From: Alphaproteobacteria bacterium
Lineage (GTDB): Bacteria > Pseudomonadota > Alphaproteobacteria > Rickettsiales > 21-14-0-20-44-7
DNA length: 53,556 nucleotides
Direction of reading: 5' to 3'
Assembly: GCA_013288575.1 (NCBI GenBank)
Contig: JABDBO010000001.1
Location: 91 to 53,646 of the forward strand
Positions 6,984-32,610 of this stretch are shown here, piece after piece. The notes beneath the pieces were generated by a model. The model had not been told where the DNA came from, searched no databases, and was given only the letters and a program-made list of their open reading frames with translations. How positions within the stretch are numbered: position 1 is the stretch's first letter; each line of letters starts with the position of its first letter. The translations under genes were made by a program, and so were the position numbers.

Positions 6984-7484
6984 ATGCAGCATAACGGCAG
7001 AAGAAATAACAATAATCGCAACAGATTTAAAAATAACAATAACAATAACCGCAGACGTTATAACAATGGCTGTGGCGGAAGTAGCAGTGGGTTTGATGAT
7101 GAATCATCAAATATTAGCGTTCAGCAACGCAAAAACTTTGCTAACAAATATGAGCAATATGTGCAAAAGGCAAAAGACGCACTCCGCAGCGGTGATCGCG
7201 TTGACGCGGAAAATCATTACCAACATGCTGACCATGCTTATCGTATGATGAATTTAGGGTTAACCGGTGGGTTACGCTTTGATGCGGCGAGGATGATTAT
7301 TTCTAATCCTAACCAACAGAGCAACGCTGATTACCAAGAAAATAGTGAAGGTGGCGAGCAAGTTGATAATTCGCCGATGCAAGTAGAAGGTTCTAGCGAC
7401 CAAGCACCTGCATCTGATATTGCAGCACTCCCATTTATGCAGCCGATTGAAACTAATGATCGTGATCCGCGGATTATAGAATAG
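6984..7484 (+). CDS. DUF4167 domain-containing protein
   Basis: N/R-rich N-terminus followed by YEQYVQKAKDALRSGDRVDAENHYQHADHAYRMM, which matches my recollection of the DUF4167 core. It lies downstream of prmC, as is common in alphaproteobacteria. Confidence 0.7.
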   Translation: MQHNGRRNNNNRNRFKNNNNNNRRRYNNGCGGSSSGFDDESSNISVQQRKNFANKYEQYVQKAKDALRSGDRVDAENHYQHADHAYRMMNLGLTGGLRFDAARMIISNPNQQSNADYQENSEGGEQVDNSPMQVEGSSDQAPASDIAALPFMQPIETNDRDPRIIE

Positions 7485-7584: not shown

Positions 7585-8526
7585 CTAACTCCACTTGAGC
7601 AGAACACTGCCCCAGGAGAAGCCGCCGCCGAGTGCGGTTAGCACAATCAAATCATCTTTTTTGAATTTGCTTTGTGCTTCGCAAAGCGCAAGCGGAATTG
7701 AAGCGGCAGAGGTGTTGGCGTGTTTGCTGACCGTTTCGATAACTTTTTCTGGTGCAATGCCGATGCGTTCGGCAATTGCATTCATAATGCGTAAGTTCGC
7801 CTGGTGCGGCACAATCCAGTTCACATCATTAATAGTTTTGCCGTTGCTTGCCAAAATATCGGCAATTCCGCCTGACATTTTTTCCACCGCATGTTTGAAA
7901 ACTTCGCGCCCATTCATTTTCAAAACGCCGATAGATTTCTGGCTAACGCCACCGCTGACGTAAAGCTCATCATAGTGGCTGCCATCGGTGTTGAGTTTGG
8001 TCGAAATAATTCCTGGTTTATCAGAGGCTGAAAGCACAATTGCGCCAGCGCCATCACCGAACAAAACACATGTGCCGCGGTCAGACCAGTCGAGCACGCG
8101 GGTTAAAGTTTCCGCACCAATTACCAATGCAGTTTTAATCTGGCCGAGTTTGATAAAATTATCGGCCGTTGCAACAGCAAAAGCAAAGCCGGCGCAGACT
8201 GCCTGCACATCGAAAGCAAAACCGGATTTAAAACCAAGTTTCTTCTGCACCTGCGCGGCGGTGGCAGGGAAAGTGTTATCTGGGCTGGTGGTGGCAAGGA
8301 TTATGGCATCAACTTCTGCAAGCCCTGCGTTCTTTAGCGCAACTTTGGCAGCCGCCACTGCCAGGTCTGAAGTCAGCTCGCCGTCGGCCGCAATATAGCG
8401 TTGGGTAATGCCGGTGCGCGTGCGTATCCACTCGTCATTTGTGCCAAGCTCTGCCGGCAACTCACTGTTTAATATGCGTTTCTTCGGCAAATAGCTTCCG
8501 CAGCCAATAATTTTTGAATAAGTCAT
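7585..8526 (-). CDS. fabH: 3-oxoacyl-ACP synthase III
   Basis: 313 aa with the active-site Cys context (QAVCAGFAFAV), HQANLRI and GGGFSWG motifs. Confidence 0.95.
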   Translation of the reverse strand: MTYSKIIGCGSYLPKKRILNSELPAELGTNDEWIRTRTGITQRYIAADGELTSDLAVAAAKVALKNAGLAEVDAIILATTSPDNTFPATAAQVQKKLGFKSGFAFDVQAVCAGFAFAVATADNFIKLGQIKTALVIGAETLTRVLDWSDRGTCVLFGDGAGAIVLSASDKPGIISTKLNTDGSHYDELYVSGGVSQKSIGVLKMNGREVFKHAVEKMSGGIADILASNGKTINDVNWIVPHQANLRIMNAIAERIGIAPEKVIETVSKHANTSAASIPLALCEAQSKFKKDDLIVLTALGGGFSWGSVLLKWS

Positions 8527-8565
8527 AGGAGTTGAAAATAAATGTTAAATGTTTAAAGTCAATTT

Positions 8566-9243
8566 ATGAGATATGCCAGCGTCAATAATGTGATGATTTC
8601 CGCCCTGGTTAGCCAGAGTTATAAGTTCCCAACTCACCAGGCGGCGCAGAACCTGTTGGAAAAATTAAAAGCCCAATTCATTCTCGCCAAAGGACATGAG
8701 GAATTGCTTCCCCAAGGCAAGTTGAAGCTATGGATTCGCGGTTTTCAACTGACCGAGGAAGAAATTAAGGAAGGCGCGCTGGGTAATTTTTGCATAGCGA
8801 CGATTGTGCAGCAAAATGATGGCAACTGCCTTATTAAATGCGAGAAGGAAAATACTCCGCCGATCAACCATCCGATGAAAAAGCGCAAAACCGCGCGCAT
8901 GCCGAATTGGGGCCATCCGACCATGCGCTATATTAAAAACGGCGGCAAGTTTGATAGATATGAAGATGCGGTTGAATCGCTTTATAATTTGCACCAGGAA
9001 TTTCCTGATACGACGATCCCGAACAAGGATAGATTGGATGTAATGGTTTATACGCGTGAAGGAAAAAAGAAACCGGAGACAAAAAAATTCCGCCTCAATT
9101 TAAAGCCAGTAGAAAATTATTTTGTAATTACGCCGGAAGAAAAAGTTGCCCGCCCGCGCGTTTCGGAAACGGAAGAAAAACCATCAGACATTATCGGCCG
9201 CTTTACAGCGCTGGCGCTAATGAAGAAGAAAAAGAAGAAATGA
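8566..9243 (+). CDS. Hypothetical protein, 225 aa, lysine-rich C-terminal tail
   Basis: Long ORF with no family that I recognise. It ends in MKKKKKK, and an alternative start lies at M10 (8593). It is followed by a hairpin at 9248-9269. Confidence 0.5.
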   Translation: MRYASVNNVMISALVSQSYKFPTHQAAQNLLEKLKAQFILAKGHEELLPQGKLKLWIRGFQLTEEEIKEGALGNFCIATIVQQNDGNCLIKCEKENTPPINHPMKKRKTARMPNWGHPTMRYIKNGGKFDRYEDAVESLYNLHQEFPDTTIPNKDRLDVMVYTREGKKKPETKKFRLNLKPVENYFVITPEEKVARPRVSETEEKPSDIIGRFTALALMKKKKKK

Positions 9244-9247
9244 AAAC

Positions 9248-9269
9248 GGGAGAGATTTTACTCTCTCCC
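9248..9269. terminator. Bidirectional hairpin GGGAGAGA-ttttac-TCTCTCCC
   Basis: 8-bp perfect stem. On the minus strand it is followed by GTTTTCA, which fits a terminator for the 95-aa ORF. On the plus strand it lies 5 nt after the stop of the 225-aa ORF. Confidence 0.6.
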
Positions 9270-9318
9270 ATCTTCTGCAGCGCCGTCCCGTTGGGACGCT
9301 GAAAAACTTCACTTACCC

Positions 9319-9606
9319 TTACCCTGGTATGTGTGTGAACGCAAACCAGGATGTGCAGCCAAATAATGCGACCATGGTCGCATTTAAGGCTATCCATCCA
9401 CCTTCCCATTTCTCGCCAGAACAGCTAAGGATAAGAAATCCTAAGGCTGCTACTCCCGAAGATATTCCAATTTTTATAACACTTACCTGGTTATATGGCA
9501 TGGACAATGCTATTATTAATAGGGCCAGCCCGGCCCCTATTATTGCTATCGCACCTCCTAGGGTACGGCGGATTCTTTTTGGATCAAACAGGTTTTCGTA
9601 ACTCAT
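9319..9606 (-). CDS. Small membrane protein, 95 aa, about 3 predicted TM helices (cassette 1)
   Basis: ATG at 9606 (MSYENLFDPKRIRR...). The hydrophobic stretches are GGAIAIIGAGLALLIIAL, IGISSGVAALGFLILS and MVALFGCTSWFAF. A conserved leader precedes it and a terminator follows. No SD is visible. Confidence 0.5.
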   Translation of the reverse strand: MSYENLFDPKRIRRTLGGAIAIIGAGLALLIIALSMPYNQVSVIKIGISSGVAALGFLILSCSGEKWEGGWIALNATMVALFGCTSWFAFTHIPG

Positions 9607-9698
9607 GATGTTTTGTTTATTAATTGTAACTCGGGATGAGTCACAAGAAGAATCTATACAATACAATAGATTTTGGAATTCGTACGATAAATTTTGAG
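9607..9698 (-). promoter_or_regulatory. Conserved leader, copy 1 (most diverged)
   Basis: On the minus strand it reads CTCAAAATTTATCGTACGAATTCC...GTTACAATTAATAAAC...ATG. It shares the 20-nt core and the ACAATTAA block with copy 2. Confidence 0.5.
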
Positions 9699-9720
9699 GC
9701 TCAATAAAAAGTATCGGCGA

Positions 9721-9741
9721 GGGGAAGCTTTCGCAACCCCC
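9721..9741 (-). terminator. Weak hairpin after the 60-aa ORF (GGGG-AA-GC tttc GC-AA-CCCC)
   Basis: The stem is interrupted by an AA/AA internal loop. The T-run on the minus strand begins about 10 nt downstream, so this is a lower-quality terminator. Confidence 0.35.
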
Positions 9742-9756
9742 ACACCAATGACAGGC

Positions 9757-9939
9757 CTACACTATGGTAGGCTTGCTAGCTTTTCGTTTTTGTCGCCAAT
9801 CATAAATGGCAGCAACCGCTATAGCCAGCATAGCGATGCCGAATATGATCATGACATTCCGCTGCGGGGCGGTTAGCAGATATCCAAGCAGGCACAGCAG
9901 AATTATTCCAACGATTTTAGCTACTTTTTCTTTCATCAT
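9757..9939 (-). CDS. Small membrane protein, 60 aa, 2 predicted TM helices (cassette 2)
   Basis: The peptide is MMKEKVAKIVGIILLCLLGYLLTAPQRNVMIIFGIAMLAIAVAAIYDWRQKRK, with a positively charged tail. It has its own conserved leader. Confidence 0.5.
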   Translation of the reverse strand: MMKEKVAKIVGIILLCLLGYLLTAPQRNVMIIFGIAMLAIAVAAIYDWRQKRKASKPTIV

Positions 9940-10030
9940 AAGAGTTAATTGTAATCGCTTTCCAAAATGGATGCGAGAAGAGCCTGCAATATAGCAGAAG
10001 ACTGCGAAATTCGTATGATAAATTTTGTGA
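9940..10030 (-). promoter_or_regulatory. Conserved leader, copy 2
   Basis: On the minus strand it reads TCACAAAATTTATCATACGAATTTCGCAGTCTTCTGCTATATTGCAGG...TTTTGGAAAGCGATTACAATTAACTCTT-ATG. By eye it is roughly three-quarters identical to copy 3. Confidence 0.6.
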
Positions 10031-10038
10031 AATCATAT

Positions 10039-10075
10039 AAAAAGGCGGGGGAGATATGTAAATCTCCTTCCCGCC
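10039..10075 (-). terminator. Rho-independent terminator after the 44-aa ORF
   Basis: On the minus strand, GGCGGGAAGGAGAT-ttacat-ATCTCCCCCGCC is followed by TTTTT. Confidence 0.75.
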
Positions 10076-10116
10076 TCATGGGCAACGCAACCGGTCGGCG
10101 CGCTGCTAGACCAAAA

Positions 10117-10251
10117 TTACCAGTGCATGTTCGCAATGGATGATGAATCCACCATACCTTTGAGTACGGCGGCCACAAATATCACGAATCCACCTATTAA
10201 GAAAAATCCAAGGAGACAACCCATGGGTTCTTCTTTTTTATCATTAGCCAT
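10117..10251 (-). CDS. Small hydrophobic peptide, 44 aa, 1 predicted TM helix (cassette 3; below ORF-track cutoff)
   Basis: I translated it by hand as MANDKKEEPMGCLLGFFLIGGFVIFVAAVLKGMVDSSSIANMHW*. A conserved leader precedes it and a strong terminator follows. No SD is visible. Confidence 0.45.
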   Translation of the reverse strand: MANDKKEEPMGCLLGFFLIGGFVIFVAAVLKGMVDSSSIANMHW

Positions 10252-10340
10252 ATTTTTTCAATCGCGTTCCAGAATTGAAGGCGAGTAGAAGCACATAATA
10301 TAGCAGAAATCAGTGAAATTCGTATGATAAATCTTGCGAA
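10252..10340 (-). promoter_or_regulatory. Conserved leader, copy 3
   Basis: On the minus strand it reads TTCGCAAGATTTATCATACGAATTTCACTGATTTCTGCTATATTATGTGC...TTCTGGAACGCGATTGAAAAAAT-ATG. Confidence 0.6.
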
Positions 10341-10345
10341 GTTAC

Positions 10346-10375
10346 AAAAAAAAGCGGAAGCCCGAAGGCCTCCGC
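10346..10375 (-). terminator. Rho-independent terminator after the 39-aa ORF
   Basis: On the minus strand, GCGGAGGCC-ttcg-GGCTTCCGC is followed by TTTTTTTT. Confidence 0.8.
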
Positions 10376-10424
10376 TTTGTGCAGCTCCACCGTATCGGCG
10401 GTGCTGCTTGAACTGATACTACTG

Positions 10425-10544
10425 CTACTGTCCCTTTCCCTTCCGGGCTAGCGCCATGCCGAGTAAGCACGACGCGGCCAGGAACGCCATAAAATATCCC
10501 ACCCAAGGGGTGGTGGCGACGATTGGTTCAGAATTTTCGTTCAT
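10425..10544 (-). CDS. Small hydrophobic peptide, 39 aa, 1 predicted TM helix (cassette 4; below ORF-track cutoff)
   Basis: I translated it by hand as MNENSEPIVATTPWVGYFMAFLAASCLLGMALARKGKGQ*. A strong terminator follows. The upstream region shares only a GCTATAGT-type block with the other leaders. Confidence 0.4.
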   Translation of the reverse strand: MNENSEPIVATTPWVGYFMAFLAASCLLGMALARKGKGQ

Positions 10545-10679
10545 AGGGTTAACACGTAGAGACCATGGTTGGATGGTCAAGGTGCCTAAACTATAGCAAT
10601 GCTGTTGAGGATTTGCATTATAATATTTTAAGGATTGGCGTGAATTTACTGCGGGTAAAAAGAAGTGAGGGAATCGGAA

Positions 10680-11699
10680 TTACAAATCCGCATCATTCTC
10701 GCTTGAGAAGCCGATTTCATCAATAATTCGCTGATTTATATTGGCTTTTGCCAGGTGAATTGCGACATCGATTGCATTGGCAAAGCCAACATGGTCCATT
10801 CCGCCGTGACTTTTTACGATAATTCCGTTTAAGCCCAAAAACATCGCGCCGTTATGCGCGCGCGGATCGATTTTTTTGAAAATACTTTTTAGCGCAGGTT
10901 TTGCCATCATGCTGCCGACTTTGGCAAAGATCGATGAAGTTAAACCCATCTTGATATATTCACCGCAAAGTTTGGCGACACCTTCGGCGGTTTTGAGTGC
11001 GATGTTGCCGGTGAATCCATCAGTGACGATAATATCAACTGTGCCGGTGGCGATATCATTGCCTTCGATGAAGCCAACATATTTAATTGGGATTTGTGTG
11101 GTTTGCAGCATCTCAGAAGCTTGGCGGACTGAATCCACCCCTTTGCCAGCTTCGGAACCGATATTGAGCAAACCAATTGTCGGCTCTTTTTTGCCAAGCA
11201 GCGCAACGCCGAAAGCTTCACCCATAATTGCGAATTGGAAAAGGTTTTCTGCCGTGCATTCAGGATTTGCTCCCAGATCAAGCATAACGGCTTGGCCTTT
11301 ACGAGTTGGGAAAAGTGAGCAGATAGCAGGACGGTCAATGCCGGGCAGGGTGCGAAGCGCAATTTTTGCCATCGCCATTAACGCGCCAGTGTTGCCGCCG
11401 GAAACGCAAGCATCGGCAATTTTTTCTTTAACCGTATTGATTGCCAATTGCATTGAAGAATTTTTGCCTTGGCGAAGCGCAATCGAGGGTTTATCTTCAT
11501 TGGTTACCACATCAGTGGTATGGATGATTTGTGAGCGCTGCTCTAACTTGTGATGTTTGTGGAGAAGCGGCCGGATTTCAGATTCATTGCCGACTAGCAA
11601 AAATTCCAGATCAGGGTTTCGCGAAAGCGCAAAATTGGCGCCGCGGATAACGGCCTTTGGAGCATAATCTCCGCCCATGGCATCAAGCGCGATTTTCAT
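10680..11699 (-). CDS. plsX: Phosphate acyltransferase PlsX
   Basis: 339 aa starting MKIALDAMGGDYAP, with the SGGNTGA motif. It lies downstream of rpmF, as in the conserved rpmF-plsX arrangement. Confidence 0.95.
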   Translation of the reverse strand: MKIALDAMGGDYAPKAVIRGANFALSRNPDLEFLLVGNESEIRPLLHKHHKLEQRSQIIHTTDVVTNEDKPSIALRQGKNSSMQLAINTVKEKIADACVSGGNTGALMAMAKIALRTLPGIDRPAICSLFPTRKGQAVMLDLGANPECTAENLFQFAIMGEAFGVALLGKKEPTIGLLNIGSEAGKGVDSVRQASEMLQTTQIPIKYVGFIEGNDIATGTVDIIVTDGFTGNIALKTAEGVAKLCGEYIKMGLTSSIFAKVGSMMAKPALKSIFKKIDPRAHNGAMFLGLNGIIVKSHGGMDHVGFANAIDVAIHLAKANINQRIIDEIGFSSENDADL

Positions 11700-11873: not shown

Positions 11874-12068
11874 TTATGCTTGCGCTGAACCTTTTTCGAG
11901 CACATTGCGGCCATTGTAGAAGCCGTCTTTGCTTACATGGTGCGGGCGTTTGAGTTCGCCAGTTGTTGAATCTTCAACGTAACCAACTGTTTTTTTAGCA
12001 TGTTTCATGTTGGCTGATTTTCTCATGCCGGTACGTGATTTCGATTTCTTCCGCTTAGGAACTGCCAT
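11874..12068 (-). CDS. rpmF: 50S ribosomal protein L32
   Basis: 64 aa starting [18 protein letters not shown], the typical L32 N-terminus. Confidence 0.95.
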
Positions 12069-12239: not shown

Positions 12240-12316
12240 GGGCGGTTAGCTCAGTTGGTTAGAGCGCTACGTTGACATCGTAGAGGTCGGAGGTTCGAGT
12301 CCTCTACCGCCCACCA
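12240..12316 (+). tRNA. tRNA-Val (anticodon GAC), CCA encoded
   Basis: I folded the cloverleaf by hand. The acceptor is GGGCGGT/ACCGCCC and the D-arm is GCTC-AGTTGGTTA-GAGC. The anticodon arm is CTACG-TTGACAT-CGTAG and the T-arm is GGAGG-TTCGAGT-CCTCT. The discriminator is A and the total length is 77 nt. Confidence 0.93.
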
Positions 12317-12502: not shown

Positions 12503-12979
12503 ATGATTTTACAAATTGAGAAAACCAACCATATCAAAGCATCAAAAGATGCAGAAATTGCTCCCAACCCAATTGATATAGTTCTGGCTGAAGATAGTAT
12601 AGGCGACCAGTGCTTAACTGAAATTGCTTTGAAGAAAACTAATATCCCGCATTACTTGACCACTTATCGTAATGGAGATTTGTTATTGCCGGCATTGGTT
12701 GAACAACGCGAACAAAATAAGAAATTATTACCTGATTTGCTTCTTTTGGATATTGGCTTACCTGGCAGGAATGGTATTGATATATTGGCAGAACTCGCGC
12801 AATCTTCTCCTTCAATTAGATCAATTCCCATTGTCATTCTTACTAATTATTCTGACCTAGAATATATTTGCAGCAAACAGAATAATCTTTTCATAGTGAG
12901 TTATTTGCGCAAACCTTGTGACCCGGCGATTTTGAAAATTATAATGGAAAATATCAGGCGCTATAAATTTCCAAATTAA
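12503..12979 (+). CDS. Single-domain response regulator (CheY-like receiver)
   Basis: DIVLAEDS acidic pocket, the phospho-acceptor context LLLLDIGLPGRNG, IVILT and YLRKP (conserved Lys). There is no output domain. Confidence 0.8.
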   Translation: MILQIEKTNHIKASKDAEIAPNPIDIVLAEDSIGDQCLTEIALKKTNIPHYLTTYRNGDLLLPALVEQREQNKKLLPDLLLLDIGLPGRNGIDILAELAQSSPSIRSIPIVILTNYSDLEYICSKQNNLFIVSYLRKPCDPAILKIIMENIRRYKFPN

Positions 12980-19309: not shown

Positions 19310-21709
19310 ATGGGGAATTTTTGCAGGTATTTGCAGATGATTTTTTTAAGCGCTTTTTTATGTGGCGCTTATTCATCTGCGCATGCTGAAATTTTTGTAA
19401 AACCTGGTGCTCCTGCAAGCTTTGCTGATATGGAAAAACCAAAAGCAACAGTAGTTGATGTTTTCTTCGGTGGAAAATCTATCGGCAGTTTCAAAGGAAA
19501 ATTTTCGCCAACAAGTTTTTGGTTTGATGCGCCGGAAAAAATTATTGCCAAACTCGATAATGTAAAAGATGAAAACAAAATCCAAGTGCAAAGTGCATTA
19601 GGCGCCGAGTTACCAAATAACGCCGGTCAAATTTGCCGCAAATATCAGGAAAAAAATTGCGGCATATTAAGCCCGGAAGTTACTGGAGTGATTTTTGACG
19701 AAGAAAAATTCCGCGTCGATATTTTCATCAACAAAGATTTTTTGAAACTACAGGATAATTCTTCTGCGCGATATCTGCCGGGTGCCGAGCAGAAGTTTTC
19801 ATCCATTCTCGGTTTAAGTGGCGCAGTTGCCGGCAGCACTAATGCGCAAACTAATTTTACTATCAATGACAACACAACTTATTCATTCGGCGAAACCAAC
19901 CTCAACACGCAAAGCTCAGTTTCCAACCAGGGTTTGCGTTTTGATAACGTTGTAGCCAGCCGCGATATTGAAGGCGTAAATCAGCAAGCTGGGCTTTTTA
20001 GAAGCCGGGCGATGCAATTAATTCCTGACCATGATATGGCAGGCGTGGCAATTTCCACTTCGATGAATACGCGGCTTGATGCGCATAAGGTGCAGGGTAA
20101 TGATGTTGCGGTTTATTTGCCGCGCCGCTCGTGGGTTTCAATTTACCGCGACGGAAAATTATATTCTTCGAATTTCTATGAAGCCGGCAACCAACTCATC
20201 GACACCACAGAATTGCCGGAAGGTGCATATTTCATTACGCTTCATATTCAAGGCTCCGATGGTTCGGTAACGGAAGAGCGCCGCTTCTTCGCCAAATCAC
20301 CAGATCTGCCGCCGCCAGGTGATCCGGTATATTATGCTGAAGGTGGCGTTATCAGAAAACCGGCGCAGCTTGATGACACGATGCCAAATATCACTGATCA
20401 TCCGATTATGCGCTTAGGAACGGTGCAACGTTTAACTGAGTATTTGGGAGTGGACACCGGCCTTCTCGGTCTTGATGACCAAGTGGCAGGCGAGGCGAGT
20501 TTCTTTGGTATGTATGACGGGCAAAAAATTCGCACTTCCATAATGAGTAGCTCACGTGGTGATTATGGTCTGCAGGCTTCTTATGAAGCAATTTTTGATA
20601 AACTCTCCGTTTCAATGGATACGCGTAAAGTATGGGCGGGGGATGATAGGCACCCGGCTTATGACCCGGTTAGCAATGGGTTGGCGCAAACTACAGCGAC
20701 AATCAATTACCAGATTACGCCTGATCTAACCGCTAGCGCGCATTATAATAACAGTTGGCAAGAAAATTCATCAACGCAAAATTCTTATGGCCCTGGCTTG
20801 GAATACTACGCTTGGCGGAGTGGAGAAAATAGTTTGGCCTTCACGACTGATGTTAGCAAAACAAATCAGGGTGTGGTTGGCACAGCATTCGTTCGCTTTA
20901 GCATGAAACTTGGTGAGTGGGGATTAAGCGGCACGACAGGTGCCACCGCTGGCGGCAGTAACCATGGTGAAATGGGTAATGTGCACGGAACCTGGAGCGA
21001 TGATAAATCAATCGATCATAAAACGCTGGCGGGAATTGGTTTTGATTCTGACCGCAATAGCAGAAGTATTGGTGGTGATATTCAATATAATGACAATTTC
21101 GGCATGGCCAAAGGCAATGTGCAAGAAGCACAAAATACGAACGGCAATATGTTGAACTATGGCGGCCAATTTAATTTTGGCGTGGCGCAAGTAGGTGACC
21201 GCATCGAAGTTGGCGGCGATAGAATGGATTGGAGCGCAGTGATTGTTGACGTTACAGGTGATGCCGGAATTCCGATGCAGATTATGGTCAACAACATCCC
21301 GCGCCAAAATGTGATGCCGGGCACAAGCCAGACAATTTATCTATCCCCTTACCAAACTTATGCGGTGCGAATAGTCGCGGCCAAAGATGGTTTGTATGAT
21401 TATGACACCGGCAACCGCGCTGTGACACTTTATCCTGGCAATGTAACCAAGTTGGAATGGGAGGTGGATAAAGCGGTTTTATTAGTTGGGCATGTGGTTG
21501 ATAAGGATGGAAATATATTAGTGAACGCAACTTTATTGGCGGGTAAAAACCAGATTGTTACCAATGAAGATGGTCGCTTCCAGGCTGAAGTTCACTCGGC
21601 TAAAACGCTACAATTCCAGAAAGATGATGTGATATGTACCGTAACTCTGCCGCTAGCAGAAGAAAAGAATGGCGTACTAGTTTATAGAGATAAGTTGGTG
21701 TGTGAGTAA
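19310..21709 (+). CDS. Outer-membrane usher-like protein, 799 aa
   Basis: Signal peptide, a size appropriate for a large beta-rich usher, and a C-terminal beta-sandwich-like segment (VGHVVDKDGNILVNATLLAGKNQIVTNEDGRFQAEV). Its position after the pilin genes and next to the chaperone also supports the call. The family (classical versus TcfC/CooC-like) is not resolvable by eye. Confidence 0.6.
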   Translation: MGNFCRYLQMIFLSAFLCGAYSSAHAEIFVKPGAPASFADMEKPKATVVDVFFGGKSIGSFKGKFSPTSFWFDAPEKIIAKLDNVKDENKIQVQSALGAELPNNAGQICRKYQEKNCGILSPEVTGVIFDEEKFRVDIFINKDFLKLQDNSSARYLPGAEQKFSSILGLSGAVAGSTNAQTNFTINDNTTYSFGETNLNTQSSVSNQGLRFDNVVASRDIEGVNQQAGLFRSRAMQLIPDHDMAGVAISTSMNTRLDAHKVQGNDVAVYLPRRSWVSIYRDGKLYSSNFYEAGNQLIDTTELPEGAYFITLHIQGSDGSVTEERRFFAKSPDLPPPGDPVYYAEGGVIRKPAQLDDTMPNITDHPIMRLGTVQRLTEYLGVDTGLLGLDDQVAGEASFFGMYDGQKIRTSIMSSSRGDYGLQASYEAIFDKLSVSMDTRKVWAGDDRHPAYDPVSNGLAQTTATINYQITPDLTASAHYNNSWQENSSTQNSYGPGLEYYAWRSGENSLAFTTDVSKTNQGVVGTAFVRFSMKLGEWGLSGTTGATAGGSNHGEMGNVHGTWSDDKSIDHKTLAGIGFDSDRNSRSIGGDIQYNDNFGMAKGNVQEAQNTNGNMLNYGGQFNFGVAQVGDRIEVGGDRMDWSAVIVDVTGDAGIPMQIMVNNIPRQNVMPGTSQTIYLSPYQTYAVRIVAAKDGLYDYDTGNRAVTLYPGNVTKLEWEVDKAVLLVGHVVDKDGNILVNATLLAGKNQIVTNEDGRFQAEVHSAKTLQFQKDDVICTVTLPLAEEKNGVLVYRDKLVCE

Positions 21710-24572: not shown

Positions 24573-24629
24573 AACTTAGAACATTAGAACTTAGAACGTT
24601 AGATATCTAAGTTATAACGTTTTATCTAA
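24570..24629. repeat. Four degenerate tandem 15-nt units between convergent genes
   Basis: The units are TAGAACTTAGAACAT, TAGAACTTAGAACGT, TAGATATCTAAGTTA and TAACGTTTTATCTAA. The region contains the near-palindrome AACGTTAGATATCTAAGTT and overlaps both stop codons. Confidence 0.7.
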
Positions 24630-25345
24630 CCCTTCCAATCTGCCACCACAGCATGCGCTGCTTCAGCCAATTGCTTACGATCACCTTTCACGCTTAGTGG
24701 CTCGTGGATTTTCACCTCAGCGCGCACAATTCCCAAATTCACAAATTCATTTAAATGTGGCATAAGTTCCGCATCACCAACCCAAGCGATTTTTACGCGC
24801 TCATTGGCCTGAATCGGCAAACCATTTATATGCGTATAAGTAATCGTTACCGGCTGAATGGTGATATCTCGCGCTTCAGCAATTTTGAATAACGATGATT
24901 TGAATGGCAGCACGCCTTTGCCGTCACTTGTCGTGCCCTCAGGAAATAAAATCAGGTTTTTGCCGCTATCAATTGCCTTTTCCAAATCACCAATCTGGTT
25001 GGTGGTGCCGCTTCTTTTTCGGCTGACAAAAACGCAACCGCTTAAACTCGCAATCCACCCCATCAATGGCCATTTTTTCACTTCTGCTTTGGAAACGAAA
25101 CTGCCGGGGAGTGACGCGCCAAGCACCATAATATCAACATATGACATATGGTTTGAAACGAACATGACTGGCTCCTTATGGGAGATTTTTCCTTTGATGG
25201 AAACTTTAATACGGAACGCGCGGGCAAGGATGCGATAGATTATAATATTTGCACGTTTGCGAGTGTGGTTTGGTAAAAGCGCTGACAGTGAAATTGGGAT
25301 TAGGAACAGCGCCAACAATGACATTAAATAAATAACTCTAAGCAT
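24626..25345 (-). CDS. olsA: Lysophospholipid/lyso-ornithine lipid O-acyltransferase (PlsC family), probable OlsA
   Basis: NHMSYVD (HX4D) and FPEGTTS motifs. It lies immediately downstream of, and overlaps, the OlsB-like gene. Confidence 0.65.
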   Translation of the reverse strand: MLRVIYLMSLLALFLIPISLSALLPNHTRKRANIIIYRILARAFRIKVSIKGKISHKEPVMFVSNHMSYVDIMVLGASLPGSFVSKAEVKKWPLMGWIASLSGCVFVSRKRSGTTNQIGDLEKAIDSGKNLILFPEGTTSDGKGVLPFKSSLFKIAEARDITIQPVTITYTHINGLPIQANERVKIAWVGDAELMPHLNEFVNLGIVRAEVKIHEPLSVKGDRKQLAEAAHAVVADWKG

Positions 25346-26189
25346 CTATTGTTCCTGGTGCATAACGAGTTTGATATTTATCGGTGATGGAATCAGTTTT
25401 TACAAGAATGCAAATATCAGTAGTGTTGTAAGGTTTATCTTTATAAGCGCCGTTGCCAACATAACCGCCAACGCGCAAATAACCTTTGATCAGCGGCGGC
25501 AAACTAACCATGCATTCGCGTTTATCCAAATGGTCTTTGTCAACCAAGTTCATCCGCTTGCCTTTGCGGCGGTTTTTCAAAACTTTCGGACGAAACTCAG
25601 CCGGTGCCAAATGATAGTGATATAAATAGGCAAGGTGAGTGGCGTGAACTTTGTAGCGTGAACCGGGGAAGCTGGCGCAGCCAAACAAAAGTTCAACATT
25701 ATGTACGGCGACATATTCACCAATCGCGCGCCACAAAAGCTGCATGGAGCTGCGTGTGCGATAAGCGCGGTCAACGCACGAGCGGCCAAGTTCCATAACT
25801 TCGCCTTTGAAATATTTCAAAGCTTTTGAAATATCATATTCACCTTCAGTGTAGAATTTTTTGCCTTTCGGAAGTTGACTGCGGCGAAGCAAACGATATG
25901 AACCGACAACTGCTTTGTTTTTATCATGGTCAATTACCAGCAAGTGATCGCAGATATTGTCATATGTATCAAAGTCACGTTTAGTAGATTTCATCTGCTT
26001 GCTGGCTTTAGCGCCCATTTCTTCGCAGAAAACGCGGTAACGCAATTTTTGTGAGGCTTTGATTTGCGATTTATTTTCGGCAACTAAAACTTCCAAACTA
26101 CCAACGCGGAAATTGACCTTGGCGTTTAAGGCCTTATCAGTTGCTTTTCGGGACGCAGAAGAGTTCGAGCCGGTGGTCGACGAGCTCAT
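25338..26189 (-). CDS. olsB: Ornithine-acyl-ACP N-acyltransferase-like GNAT (OlsB-like)
   Basis: GSLEVLVAENKSQIKASQKLRYRVFCEEMGA resembles the OlsB N-terminal block. The start is uncertain: ATG 26189 or ATG 26237. Both overlap the upstream Fur-family gene. Confidence 0.65.
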   Translation of the reverse strand: MSSSTTGSNSSASRKATDKALNAKVNFRVGSLEVLVAENKSQIKASQKLRYRVFCEEMGAKASKQMKSTKRDFDTYDNICDHLLVIDHDKNKAVVGSYRLLRRSQLPKGKKFYTEGEYDISKALKYFKGEVMELGRSCVDRAYRTRSSMQLLWRAIGEYVAVHNVELLFGCASFPGSRYKVHATHLAYLYHYHLAPAEFRPKVLKNRRKGKRMNLVDKDHLDKRECMVSLPPLIKGYLRVGGYVGNGAYKDKPYNTTDICILVKTDSITDKYQTRYAPGTIDA

Positions 26190-26547
26190 ACCCGTACTCG
26201 CTCGCAATTTTTTCCTGTAGTTTTTCAATTTCTTCATTTAGGAACTCTATAACTTTGCCTGAACGTATATCTATTAAGTGGTCATGATGCGATTCGCCAG
26301 CTTGTTCATATCTGGCGCGGCCATCACGAAAATCCCGCTTTTCAATTATGCCCTCTTCCTCGAGTAGTTTAACTGTTCTATATACTGTGGCAATTGAAAT
26401 TCGCGGGTCAATTTTATGCGAGCGCATATAAACTTCTTCAACCGAAGGATGATCGTCAGATGCGCCGATAATATTAGCAATCACCTTGCGCTGGTCTGTC
26501 ATCCGGATGCCTTTTTCAAGGCAAAGCTGCTCTAATCTGTGAGACAT
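26137..26547 (-). CDS. Fur family transcriptional regulator (Irr/Fur-like, no CxxC pairs)
   Basis: 136 aa with a winged-helix segment (ISIATVYRTVKLLEEEGII) and the metal-site HHDHLID. Structural-zinc cysteines are absent. Confidence 0.8.
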   Translation of the reverse strand: MSHRLEQLCLEKGIRMTDQRKVIANIIGASDDHPSVEEVYMRSHKIDPRISIATVYRTVKLLEEEGIIEKRDFRDGRARYEQAGESHHDHLIDIRSGKVIEFLNEEIEKLQEKIASEYGYELVDHRLELFCVPKSN

Positions 26548-31407: not shown

Positions 31408-32610
31408 ATGTCATTATTTATCTACAAGGCGATGAACGAAATGGGCAAGACGGTGCGCGGTAAAATTACTGCCGCCAATGACATTGACCTTGAAACTCGC
31501 TTAAGAGGAATTGGGCTTGATTTACTCTCGGGCAGAGAAGTGAAAGAATCAAAAGCATTGTCACTATTCGGTGTAAAAACCAAAGATAAAGTTATGTTTT
31601 GTGCGCATATGGAACAACTCGATAAAGCCGGCGTGCCGATTCTTGATGCACTTGCAGACGTGAGAGATTCTACCGAGGCGCCAAAACTAAAAGACGTATT
31701 ATCCGATGTTTATGAATCAGTAAAAACGGGTATGTTGTTATCGGAAGCTATGGCTAAACATCCGCGAACGTTTGACGGTGTATTTTGCGGCTTGATCTCG
31801 GCTGGCGAGCGAACTGGTAATTTGCACGAATCATTCAAAAGTCTTGAGCATCACCTTAAATGGTCAGCAGAAATTAAACGTAAAGTCAGAAAAGCGGTTT
31901 CATATCCAATTTTCACTTTATTCGTAATGATAGGAACAATTACTATATTGATGCTTTATGTTGTTCCGCAAATCGTAAAATTCATTGAGTCAAATGGTCA
32001 AAAATTGCCTTGGCACACGCGTGCTTTAATTTCCACTTCTGAGTTCTTCGGTGATTTCTGGTGGCTTATTTTGCCAGTTCCATTTGGCTTTTTCGTTTCG
32101 GTGAGATTCTTAAAACGCGTCTCTTACAAATTTGCTTTTAACTGGGATAAGGTAATGCTCAAACTTCCTGTTTTGGGTAATCCATTCCGCAAAATTGATA
32201 TGGCGCGGTTTGTCCACTTTTTCAGCGTTCTTTATACTAGTGGTATTGATATCCTAGAATGTCTTAAAGTTGGCCAACAAGTGGTAAAAAATAAAGTATT
32301 ACTTGACTCCCTGGAGGGAGTAAGAAGGATTGTAGGCGAGGGTAATTCGCTTACCGGCGCACTAAGAATGTCTAACCAGTTTCCGGGATTAGTTATACGC
32401 ATGTTCAAAGTTGGTGAAGATAGCGGTAATATGAAGGAAGCTTTGGAGCATGTTAACTTCTTCTTTGATCGTGAAGTTAACGATTCGGTAGATAATATCA
32501 TAGGCGTCATTAAGCCTGCCCTTACGTTGATACTTGGTTTGTTGCTTGCCTGGATCGCCCTTGCGATGTTTGGCCCGCTCTACGACGGTATCAGCAAAAT
32601 TAAATATTAG
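31408..32610 (+). CDS. Type II secretion system F family platform protein (PilC/GspF-like)
   Basis: 400 aa with two repeats of the GspF-type domain (SEAMAKHPRTFDGVFCGLISAGERTGNL and GALRMSNQFPGLVIRMFKVGEDSGNM). It has 3 TM helices. Confidence 0.85.
   Translation: MSLFIYKAMNEMGKTVRGKITAANDIDLETRLRGIGLDLLSGREVKESKALSLFGVKTKDKVMFCAHMEQLDKAGVPILDALADVRDSTEAPKLKDVLSDVYESVKTGMLLSEAMAKHPRTFDGVFCGLISAGERTGNLHESFKSLEHHLKWSAEIKRKVRKAVSYPIFTLFVMIGTITILMLYVVPQIVKFIESNGQKLPWHTRALISTSEFFGDFWWLILPVPFGFFVSVRFLKRVSYKFAFNWDKVMLKLPVLGNPFRKIDMARFVHFFSVLYTSGIDILECLKVGQQVVKNKVLLDSLEGVRRIVGEGNSLTGALRMSNQFPGLVIRMFKVGEDSGNMKEALEHVNFFFDREVNDSVDNIIGVIKPALTLILGLLLAWIALAMFGPLYDGISKIKY

What the first reader, a model, noticed from the sequence alone, without database searches (positions are those of the whole stretch)
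9244..10679. Tandem array of four terminator-bounded cassettes for small hydrophobic peptides sharing a conserved ~90-nt leader
On the minus strand between plsX and fabH there are four consecutive mini-units. Each consists of an upstream region, a short ORF (39, 44, 60 or 95 aa with 1-3 predicted TM helices) and a hairpin. Two of the hairpins are textbook rho-independent terminators (10039-10075 and 10346-10375). Two of the ORFs are too short to appear in the ORF track.

The leaders of cassettes 1-3 are paralogous. They share a 20-nt core A(A/G)ATTTATC(A/G)TACGAATT(T/C)C. Cassettes 2 and 3 also share TTCTGCTATATT and TGGAA(A/C)GCGATT blocks at fixed spacing. The unit period is about 310-330 nt. 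The encoded peptides are not obviously similar to one another.

In this array the untranslated leader is conserved, the small membrane peptides differ, and the units are tandemly duplicated. Type I toxin-antitoxin loci and stress-induced small membrane protein families have the same organisation. I cannot assign these cassettes to any described family. None of the four ORFs has a visible SD, so translation control through leader structure is plausible.
Basis: partly seen in the sequence, partly recalled or inferred. Interest (0 to 1): 0.8.

Follow-up and report, generated by a model that had tools for sequence, protein, structure and literature searches.

The report
Tandem small membrane-protein genes, shared promoter
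Four tiny membrane-protein genes sit in a row between two lipid-synthesis genes of an uncultured alphaproteobacterium; each has a copy of the same promoter and short leader plus its own terminator, and a related genome keeps this promoter module at the same site while carrying unrelated small proteins.

Summary
All four units on the minus strand (9236-10679) share one architecture, and all four end in a strong hairpin followed by a T run.

The "conserved ~90-nt leader" is mostly promoter DNA. Its 20-nt core lies 10 nt upstream of a -10 element, so it is probably not transcribed. It reads as two 7-nt direct repeats with an 11-nt period, which resembles a PHO box.

The probable 5' UTR is only about 40-45 nt. 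It has a CU-rich 5' end, a stem-loop near the 5' end, and an unstructured linker before the ATG.

The ORFs look like real genes. In each, the annotated frame scores best of six and carries transmembrane segments. The two peptides searched, C and D, have no homologues among 5.8 billion protein clusters; A and B were not searched.

A related metagenome contig (L108; PlsX 89% identical) has four units at the same site with the same promoter and leader module. Its ORFs are unrelated to those in the window. A more distant relative (L002) has one unit.

The array converges on an uncharacterised 225-aa gene. In all 5 readable contexts, that gene's family is followed by convergent small membrane-protein genes.

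I found no support for a type I toxin-antitoxin system: no conserved antisense promoter and no sequestered start codon. Verdict: co-regulated, fast-evolving small membrane-protein genes. Moderately interesting.

The parts
10346..10679 (-). Unit A. Direct-repeat box 10606-10623 (diverged). -10 TATAGT at 10590-10595, preceded by TGC. An overlapping alternative sigma-70 promoter, TTCACG-16-TATAAT, at 10617-10644. 5' hairpin at 10561-10578. ORF of 39 aa with 1 TM at 10425-10544. Terminator at 10351-10378 followed by T8.
10039..10345 (-). Unit B. Box TTATCAT-ACGA-ATTTCAC at 10313-10330. TGC plus -10 TATATT at 10297-10305. 5' hairpin at 10263-10283. ORF of 44 aa with 1 TM at 10117-10251. Terminator hairpin at 10042-10077 followed by a T run.
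9708..10038 (-). Unit C. Box at 10004-10021. TGC plus -10 TATATT at 9988-9996. 5' hairpin at 9956-9975. ORF of 60 aa with 2 TM at 9757-9939. Terminator hairpin at 9714-9749 followed by a T run.
9236..9707 (-). Unit D. Box TTATCGT-ACGA-ATTCCAA at 9673-9690. Weak -10 at 9657-9665. 5' hairpin at 9626-9644. ORF of 95 aa at 9319-9606, with 2 segments above the hydropathy threshold and probably 3 TM. Terminator at 9242-9275, shared with the convergent 225-aa gene.
8566..9243 (+). Convergent 225-aa gene of an uncharacterised family with a poly-lysine C-terminal helix. In all 5 readable contexts, its homologues are followed by convergent small membrane-protein gene(s).

Best explanation
This is a lineage-specific tandem array of four separately transcribed small-protein genes (39, 44, 60 and 95 aa, with 1-3 transmembrane helices). 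It arose by duplication of whole units, and the units are probably switched on together.

Each unit has the following parts, in order:
1. An 18-nt box made of two 7-nt direct repeats with an 11-nt period. The consensus over two genomes is TTRTCAY-N4-NTTTCAY.
2. Exactly 10 nt of spacer.
3. A -10 element, preceded in several units by an extended TG.
4. A 5' UTR of about 40-45 nt. It begins with a conserved CU-rich stretch, forms a stem-loop near the 5' end, and ends in an unstructured A/C-rich linker with no Shine-Dalgarno sequence.
5. The ORF.
6. An intrinsic terminator.

It most likely binds a transcription activator that takes the place of a -35 element. Its layout matches that of OmpR/PhoB-type response-regulator sites, and it resembles a PHO box.

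The stem-loop most likely stabilises the mRNA. The proteins insert in the inner membrane.

The array forms one block with the convergent 225-aa gene. That block is absent from the same site in the two nearest reference genomes.

**Shown:** the anatomy, the paralogy of the units, the terminators, the coding signal, conservation of the module in a second genome, and the turnover of the ORFs.

**Inferred:** the transcription start site, the identity of the regulator, the role of the hairpin, and the function of the proteins.
For: **Repeat and architecture.** The distance from the -10 element to the ATG is 45, 45, 48 and 50 nt in the four units.

**Room for a promoter.** Each unit follows an intrinsic terminator. 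A promoter must therefore lie in the roughly 95 nt before each ATG.

**Conservation in a second genome (L108).**
- L108 is 89% identical in PlsX, 83% in FabH and 67% in the 225-aa protein.
- It has four units at the same site with the same layout: TTGTCAC-N4-yTTTCAY, 10 nt, TATAAT, CAGGCTCTTTCG, a hairpin, then the ATG.
- In L108 the box cannot itself be a -10 element. This fixes the downstream hexamer as the -10.

**Resemblance to a PHO box.**
- At that fixed position the boxes match the PHO-box consensus CTGTCAT-N4-CTGTCAT at 5-11 of 14 positions.
- The background mean is 3.6, and 10 or more matches occur at 0.027% of positions.
- The consensus is taken from PMC3465305, PMC3131613 and PMC4415409.

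**5' hairpin.**
- All 8 units fold better than dinucleotide shuffles, each with p<=0.04, and the summed z is -9.1.
- The four L108 units served as an independent check of a pattern first seen in the window.
- Two units in a third genome show the same hairpin.

**Coding signal.**
- The annotated frame has the best codon score of six frames in all four ORFs.
- Every ORF has at least one segment with 19-residue hydropathy of 1.95 or more. Among random ORFs of similar length, 21% have a segment above the 1.6 threshold.

**Link to the 225-aa gene.** All 5 readable contexts of its homologues have convergent small membrane-protein genes. Both the gene and the array are absent from the plsX-fabH spacer of L001, and only one unit is present in L002.
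Against: - There are no transcript or ribosome data.
- The -35 zone matches the sigma-70 consensus poorly, so the promoter call rests on the -10 element and on conservation.
- In units B-D the box contains TATCAT or TATCGT. These align with a perfect TATAAT in unit A, which has a good -35 element. An upstream start site that would put the box inside the RNA is therefore not excluded for this genome.
- The PHO-box resemblance was noticed only after the register was fixed. It is weak in units A and D (5 and 7 of 14).
- No known phosphate-regulon gene lies in the window to calibrate the comparison.
- The statement that PHO boxes lie 10 bp upstream of the -10 element comes from my own recall, not from a paper read here.
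- RNAalifold on an unguided alignment finds no consensus structure. Homologous bases take different roles in the different hairpins.
- One L108 unit encodes a basic, non-hydrophobic 38-aa peptide.
- The association with the 225-aa family rests on about 3 independent genomic settings.
Confidence: 0.6

Rival explanations
1. This is a tandem array of type I toxin-antitoxin loci. Each small hydrophobic peptide is a membrane toxin, and an antisense or divergent small RNA represses its mRNA.
For: Peptides A-C are under 60 aa with one or two transmembrane helices, some with charged ends. The units are tandemly multiplied, as in known type I families (my own knowledge). The 5' regions are conserved. 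There are scattered promoter-like sites on the plus strand, and one terminator-like hairpin on the plus strand at 9752-9775.
Against: - No plus-strand promoter or terminator recurs at the same place in the four units, or in the four L108 units.
- Nothing outside the sense promoter and leader is conserved between the two genomes.
- The UTR is short, and the start codon lies in open sequence rather than being sequestered.
- Unit sizes reach 95-162 aa, and one unit is a basic soluble peptide.
- No Rfam family matches.
Confidence: 0.1
2. The conserved core is transcribed and acts in the RNA. Transcription would start from the TATCAT/TATAAT inside the box, giving a leader of about 75 nt. That leader would be a target for a small RNA, a protein or a ribosome standby mechanism.
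For: In unit A the box holds a perfect TATAAT with TTCACG 16 nt upstream, the best sigma-70 match in the region at 10.1 bits. TATCAT in units B and C matches the -10 consensus at 5 of 6 positions.
Against: - In L108 the homologous box is TTGTCAC, which cannot serve as a -10 element.
- In units B-D, the -35 position for such a promoter falls in the T run of the preceding terminator.
- The stretch just downstream of the second hexamer, CAGGCTCTTTCG, is conserved across genomes, as expected for the start of a transcript.
Confidence: 0.15
3. The units are non-coding small-RNA genes, or transcriptional noise from duplicated promoters, and the ORFs are incidental.
For: The two peptides searched, C and D, have no homologues in 5.8 billion protein clusters; A and B were not searched. 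The ORFs are not conserved between related genomes, whereas the promoter and 5' hairpin are. Codon scores lie in the low range for real genes.
Against: - In all four units the open frame is the best-scoring of six frames and encodes transmembrane segments.
- The ATGs align at a fixed distance from the promoter.
- The same holds for 3 of the 4 L108 units and for all the L109, L110 and L111 units.
- The transcripts would be about 250-430 nt, which is long for small RNAs.
Confidence: 0.1
4. The region is the decayed remnant of one larger gene or of a mobile element.
For: The block is missing from the same site in the nearest reference genomes.
Against: - There are four complete sets of promoter, ORF and terminator in the same order.
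- No frame runs across units.
- There is no DNA or protein match to plasmids or phages.
- There are no Pfam, NCBIfam, PHROG or PADLOC hits.
- The G+C content matches the flanks.
Confidence: 0.03

Closest known systems
Tandem type I toxin-antitoxin loci (for example ldr, ibs/sib, hok/sok, zor-orz, aapA/isoA)
   Same: Small hydrophobic peptides, multiplied in tandem, each with its own promoter and terminator and with conserved 5' regions.
   Different: No antisense or partner small RNA was detected. The UTR is short and the start codon is open. The conserved element is promoter DNA. The peptides are much less conserved than the regulatory region. Some units encode 95-162 aa.
PhoB / PHO-box promoters, and OmpR-family class II activation in general
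   Same: Two 7-nt direct repeats separated by 4 nt replace a -35 element, and they sit 10 nt upstream of the -10. Six of the 8 units match CTGTCAT-N4-CTGTCAT at 8-11 of 14 positions.
   Different: The regulator is unknown. No phosphate-regulon gene is available for comparison. Units A and D match weakly. The third genome (L109) lacks the box.
Phage 'morons' (self-contained promoter-ORF-terminator insertions)
   Same: Autonomous units of promoter, small ORF and terminator inserted between conserved genes. They are present or absent among close relatives.
   Different: The setting is chromosomal, with no phage or plasmid similarity. The units are paralogous copies of one module.
Stress-induced small membrane proteins of enterobacteria, and the ecnAB (entericidin) tandem pair
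   Same: Very small membrane or lipoprotein genes under a stress-responsive regulator, sometimes in tandem. The single L002 unit encodes a lipoprotein-like 33-aa peptide.
   Different: There is no sequence similarity to any of these and no Pfam hit. The window peptides have no lipobox.

Membership tests
Type I toxin-antitoxin system | Small hydrophobic toxin peptide, typically under 60 aa with one transmembrane helix | tested here: inconclusive
   A, B and C fit (39, 44 and 60 aa, 1-2 TM). D is 95 aa. The L108 units are 38 aa (basic), 107, 54 and 162 aa.
Type I toxin-antitoxin system | RNA antitoxin encoded antisense to or beside the toxin, with its own promoter and base-pairing to the toxin mRNA | tested here: not met
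   No plus-strand promoter or terminator is conserved in position across units or genomes. There is no conserved sequence other than the sense promoter and leader, and no Rfam hit. Sequence scans cannot prove absence.
Type I toxin-antitoxin system | Structured toxin mRNA leader that blocks the ribosome-binding site | tested here: not met
   The hairpin lies at about +6 to +28 of the predicted transcript. The 15-25 nt before each ATG are unpaired in the minimum-free-energy folds.
Type I toxin-antitoxin system | The peptide is toxic when over-expressed | not testable with these tools
   Needs an experiment.
PHO box / PhoB-dependent promoter | 18-nt site made of two 7-nt direct repeats (consensus CTGTCAT) separated by 4 nt | tested here: inconclusive
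   Matches of 14: wA 5, wB 9, wC 8, wD 7; x1 9, x2 10, x3 8, x4 11. The background mean is 3.6. The consensus comes from PMC3465305, PMC3131613 and PMC4415409.
PHO box / PhoB-dependent promoter | Site placed about 10 bp upstream of the -10 element, in place of a -35 element (my own recall; not confirmed in a paper read here) | tested here: met
   There are exactly 10 nt between the box and the -10 hexamer in all 8 units. The -35 match is poor.
PHO box / PhoB-dependent promoter | PhoB binding and induction by phosphate starvation | not testable with these tools
   No pst or pho genes occur in the window or loci to calibrate the comparison.
Described RNA leader or small-RNA family (Rfam) | Match to a curated covariance model | tested here: not met
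   At the gathering threshold, only a tRNA at 12240-12313 matches. The best sub-threshold hit is Xoo2 at 28.5 bits against a cutoff of 45, and it lies over terminator A.
Known small-protein families (Pfam, NCBIfam, PHROGs, PADLOC) | Profile match above threshold | tested here: not met
   Searches give nothing above the curated cutoffs.

The most novel reading that the evidence does not exclude
The 225-aa protein family and the convergent small membrane-protein cassettes form a previously undescribed two-part membrane module. One promoter and leader "expression slot" is conserved and duplicated, while the small proteins it drives turn over almost completely between related genomes. This would make it either a nursery for new membrane micro-proteins or a diversifying set of immunity or defence partners for the 225-aa protein.
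Probability: 0.2. Interest if true: 0.7.

Novelty: new variant of a known kind. Interest (0 to 1): 0.45.

Why it matters
Small membrane proteins are under-annotated, and two of these four are below usual gene-calling cut-offs.

This locus has three useful properties:
- It offers a clean natural test bed: the same promoter and leader drives four different micro-proteins.
- A sister genome has the module conserved and the proteins replaced.
- It is linked to a widespread protein family (286 clusters at 50% identity) that has a confident predicted fold but no known function or structural relative.

It could show how new micro-proteins arise downstream of duplicated promoters, and what the 225-aa family does. 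If the direct-repeat box is a PhoB-type site, these proteins would connect to envelope remodelling under nutrient stress, at a site next to the lipid-synthesis genes plsX and fabH.

Tried and rejected
**Searches with no result**
- Rfam, at the gathering threshold over the whole window and at a relaxed threshold over the region: no family.
- Pfam, NCBIfam, PHROGs and PADLOC on the peptides and the 225-aa protein: nothing above cutoff.
- Protein search for peptides D and C in 5.8 billion clusters: only self-hits.
- Blastn and tblastn against plasmids and phages: no match.
- Scan of viral contigs for the 225-aa family: none.
- Foldseek of the pLDDT-92 model of the 225-aa protein against the PDB: no hit with E<=0.001. 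The profile search against PDB sequences also found nothing.

**Searches that returned only chance hits**
- Metagenome DNA scan for the core plus TG: 26 single hits. None shows flanking similarity, and the number is what chance predicts.

**Ideas tested and dropped or left open**
- RNAalifold on the unguided MAFFT alignment of the four UTRs predicted 0 pairs. I replaced it with per-sequence tests against dinucleotide shuffles.
- Peptide-to-peptide similarity is marginal. The best of 91 pairs has z of 4.2.
- Canonical PHO boxes elsewhere in the window, including upstream of the olsB-like gene: none convincing.
- Other regulators for the box (RpoH, sigma-54, DnaA box, CtrA, LexA, Fur, IHF, a T7-like promoter) were compared by eye with consensus sequences recalled from memory. 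All fitted poorly.
Full report
**1. What is at the coordinates**

On the minus strand the order is rpmF (11874-12068), plsX (10680-11699), four short units (10679 down to 9236), and later fabH (7585-8526). It lies between the array and fabH and converges on unit D.

**2. The repeat is real**

- The 17-nt core occurs exactly three times and nowhere else in the window.
- The repeat finder reports a 61-nt family with three copies spaced 331 and 309 nt apart; B and C are 82% identical.
- Aligning whole units shows that unit A carries a diverged copy of the same module, and that all four ATGs align.
- The distance from the -10 element to the ATG is 45, 45, 48 and 50 nt.
- A matrix built from the 8 units of the two genomes scores the window units at 27-51 bits, against 10.6 bits for the next best site.
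- All four units end in a strong hairpin followed by a T run (-23 to -31 kcal/mol; z -3.2 to -4.2).

**3. The ORFs look like genes, and C and D have no homologues**

- For each ORF the annotated frame has the highest codon log-likelihood of the six frames. Each score exceeds 95-99% of non-coding-frame segments but lies in the low range for real genes.
- Each ORF has at least one segment with mean 19-residue hydropathy of 1.95 or more. Among random ORFs of 39-100 aa in the window, 21% have a segment above the 1.6 threshold.
- Peptides D and C match only themselves among 5.8 billion protein clusters. A and B were not searched.
- No profile library gives a hit.
- A, B and C share a CLLG motif. 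In B and C it is in register with the DNA repeat (family D2). This points to duplication of whole units followed by fast divergence of the coding part.

**4. Relatives**

| Locus | Relation | What lies between plsX and fabH |
|---|---|---|
| L107 | Logan contig, 100% identical | The same locus |
| L001 | Reference genome, PlsX 83% | A frameshifted four-helix-bundle gene |
| L002 | Reference genome, PlsX 74% | One unit: a module hit of 22 bits, TATAAT, a 33-aa lipoprotein-like ORF containing CLLA, and a terminator |
| L003 | Micavibrio | Nothing; the genes are adjacent |
| L108 | Found through the 225-aa protein; PlsX 89%, FabH 83%, 225-aa protein 67% | Same synteny, with 1.8 kb in which no genes had been called |

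The 1.8-kb stretch in L108 holds four units (38, 107, 54 and 162 aa). Each reads TTGTCAC-N4-yTTTCAY, 10 nt, TATAAT or TATTAT, CAGGCTCTTTCG, a hairpin, an A/C-rich linker, the ATG, and later a terminator.

The window box, TTATCAT-ACGA-ATTTCAC, is the same element at the same distance from the -10 element.

Between the two genomes the flanking genes are 73-81% identical in DNA. The arrays align only over 21 nt at the start of the transcribed region. The peptides show no significant similarity.

**5. What the "leader" is**

A terminator ends 10-15 nt before each box, so a promoter must lie within the roughly 95 nt before each ATG.

It also appears as TGCTATAAA in three units of a third genome. 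In L108 the box cannot act as a -10 element. The 20-nt core therefore sits at about -38 to -21 and is most likely not transcribed.

The sigma-70 -35 match is poor. Instead, the box consists of two 7-nt direct repeats with an 11-nt period, exactly 10 nt upstream of the -10 element. This is how PHO boxes are organised, and more generally the sites of OmpR/PhoB-family activators. Papers read here define the PHO box as two 7-nt repeats of CTGTCAT separated by 4 nt (PMC4415409, PMC3465305, PMC3131613). The 10-bp position is from my own recall.

The boxes match that consensus at 5-11 of 14 positions. The background mean is 3.6, and 10 or more matches occur at 0.027% of positions.

This remains a lead and has not been tested. 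No phosphate-regulon gene is available for calibration, and units A and D match weakly.

One alternative cannot be excluded for this genome alone. In unit A, the sequence TTCACG-16-TATAAT inside the box is the best sigma-70 match in the region.

**6. The true 5' UTR**

The predicted transcript runs about 40-45 nt before the ATG.
- It begins with a conserved CU-rich stretch.
- A stem-loop sits at a fixed offset, 12-34 nt after the -10 element. The stems have different sequences in each unit: GACCAT/ATGGTC; CGC.TTC/GAA.GCG; CGC.TCCA/TGGA..GCG; GTGACTC/GAGTTAC.
- Each of the 8 segments folds better than dinucleotide shuffles (p<=0.04 each; summed z -9.1).
- The four L108 units acted as an independent check, and two L109 units behave the same way.
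- RNAalifold on an unguided alignment finds nothing. Homologous bases play different roles in different hairpins, so the constraint seems to be "a hairpin here" rather than a fixed structure.
- The ATG lies in open A/C-rich sequence.
- The lack of a Shine-Dalgarno sequence is normal for this organism; only about one third of the genes in the window have one.
- I infer that the 5' stem-loop stabilises the mRNA.

**7. The neighbouring 225-aa gene**

- The family has 286 clusters at 50% identity.
- It has no Pfam, NCBIfam, PHROG or PADLOC match.
- Its AlphaFold model is confident (pLDDT 92). It shows two alpha/beta domains and a C-terminal helix ending in KKKKKK.
- It has no PDB fold match with E<=0.001.
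- All 5 contexts with readable downstream sequence carry convergent small membrane-protein genes that share a terminator hairpin with it:

| Context | Convergent small genes | Upstream neighbour |
|---|---|---|
| Window | 4 units | fabH locus |
| L108 | 4 units | fabH locus |
| L109 | 3 units (95, 100, 100 aa) | LOG gene |
| L110 | 1 unit (96 aa) | ThiS gene |
| L111 | 1 unit (83 aa) | LOG gene |

These amount to about three independent genomic settings. In L109 the leaders of units y2 and y3 are again paralogous while the proteins are not. The gene and the array are both absent from the plsX-fabH spacer in L001 and L002. I infer a functional link, possibly a peripheral membrane protein working with variable integral partners. 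The sample is small.

**8. Type I toxin-antitoxin reading**

The peptide size and the tandem layout fit. The defining RNA antitoxin was not found:
- No plus-strand promoter or terminator recurs in position.
- Nothing other than the sense promoter and leader is conserved between the genomes.
- The start codon is not sequestered.
- Some units are far too large, or are not hydrophobic.

This lowers the claim but cannot exclude it without RNA data.

**9. Verdict**

The most likely reading is a set of co-regulated, independently transcribed, fast-evolving small membrane-protein genes. Their conserved "leader" is a duplicated promoter and operator plus a short UTR bearing a hairpin. The array is coupled to an uncharacterised conserved protein. 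I rate this a new variant of a known kind, with interest of about 0.45.

Noticed in passing
window 8566-9243 (+): A 225-aa protein of an uncharacterised family (286 clusters at 50% identity). Its AlphaFold model is confident (pLDDT 92), and it has no PDB fold match, no Pfam hit, and a C-terminal helix ending in KKKKKK. Convergent small membrane-protein genes follow it in all 5 contexts with readable downstream sequence.
   Followed up: partly
window 8527-8565: Only 39 nt separate the start codons of fabH (minus strand) and the 225-aa gene (plus strand). The usual plsX-fabH operon is broken here, so the fabH promoter must overlap the start of the 225-aa gene.
   Followed up: no
L001 7026-7418: In the closest reference genome, the plsX-fabH spacer holds a frameshifted gene that looks like a four-helix-bundle (23S rRNA intervening-sequence type) protein. 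This spacer appears to be an insertion hot spot in the clade.
   Followed up: no
L002 3277-3520: There is a single unit between plsX and fabH. It encodes a 33-aa lipoprotein-like peptide (MKKRVLYIIAITALCLLAIGGCVGVQRTLDGGL) with its own TATAAT and terminator. This may be the ancestral state of the array.
   Followed up: partly
L108 4982-5959 (+): An extra 325-aa ORF with no Pfam or PADLOC hit lies between fabH and the homologue of the 225-aa gene. It is absent from the window.
   Followed up: no
window, all genes: Only about one third of the long ORFs have a recognisable Shine-Dalgarno sequence. Initiation without one seems to be the norm in this organism.
   Followed up: partly
window 24626-26547 (-): An acyltransferase and a GNAT (Acetyltransf_5) gene lie side by side, resembling the ornithine-lipid genes olsA/olsB. 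The ORF upstream looks Fur-like by eye. No convincing PHO box lies upstream.
   Followed up: partly
window 19310-21709 (+): A 799-aa protein with TcfC and CooC_C domains (usher of CS1-type pili), near a T2SS-F-like gene at 31408-32610.
   Followed up: no
window 6984-7484 (+): The DUF4167 protein has an unusually long asparagine/arginine-rich N-terminus (NNNNRNRFKNNNNNN). The homologues in L001 and L002 have similar low-complexity runs.
   Followed up: no
window 12240-12313 (+): A tRNA gene (71.6 bits) lies between rpmF and a stand-alone receiver-domain gene (12503-12979).
   Followed up: no
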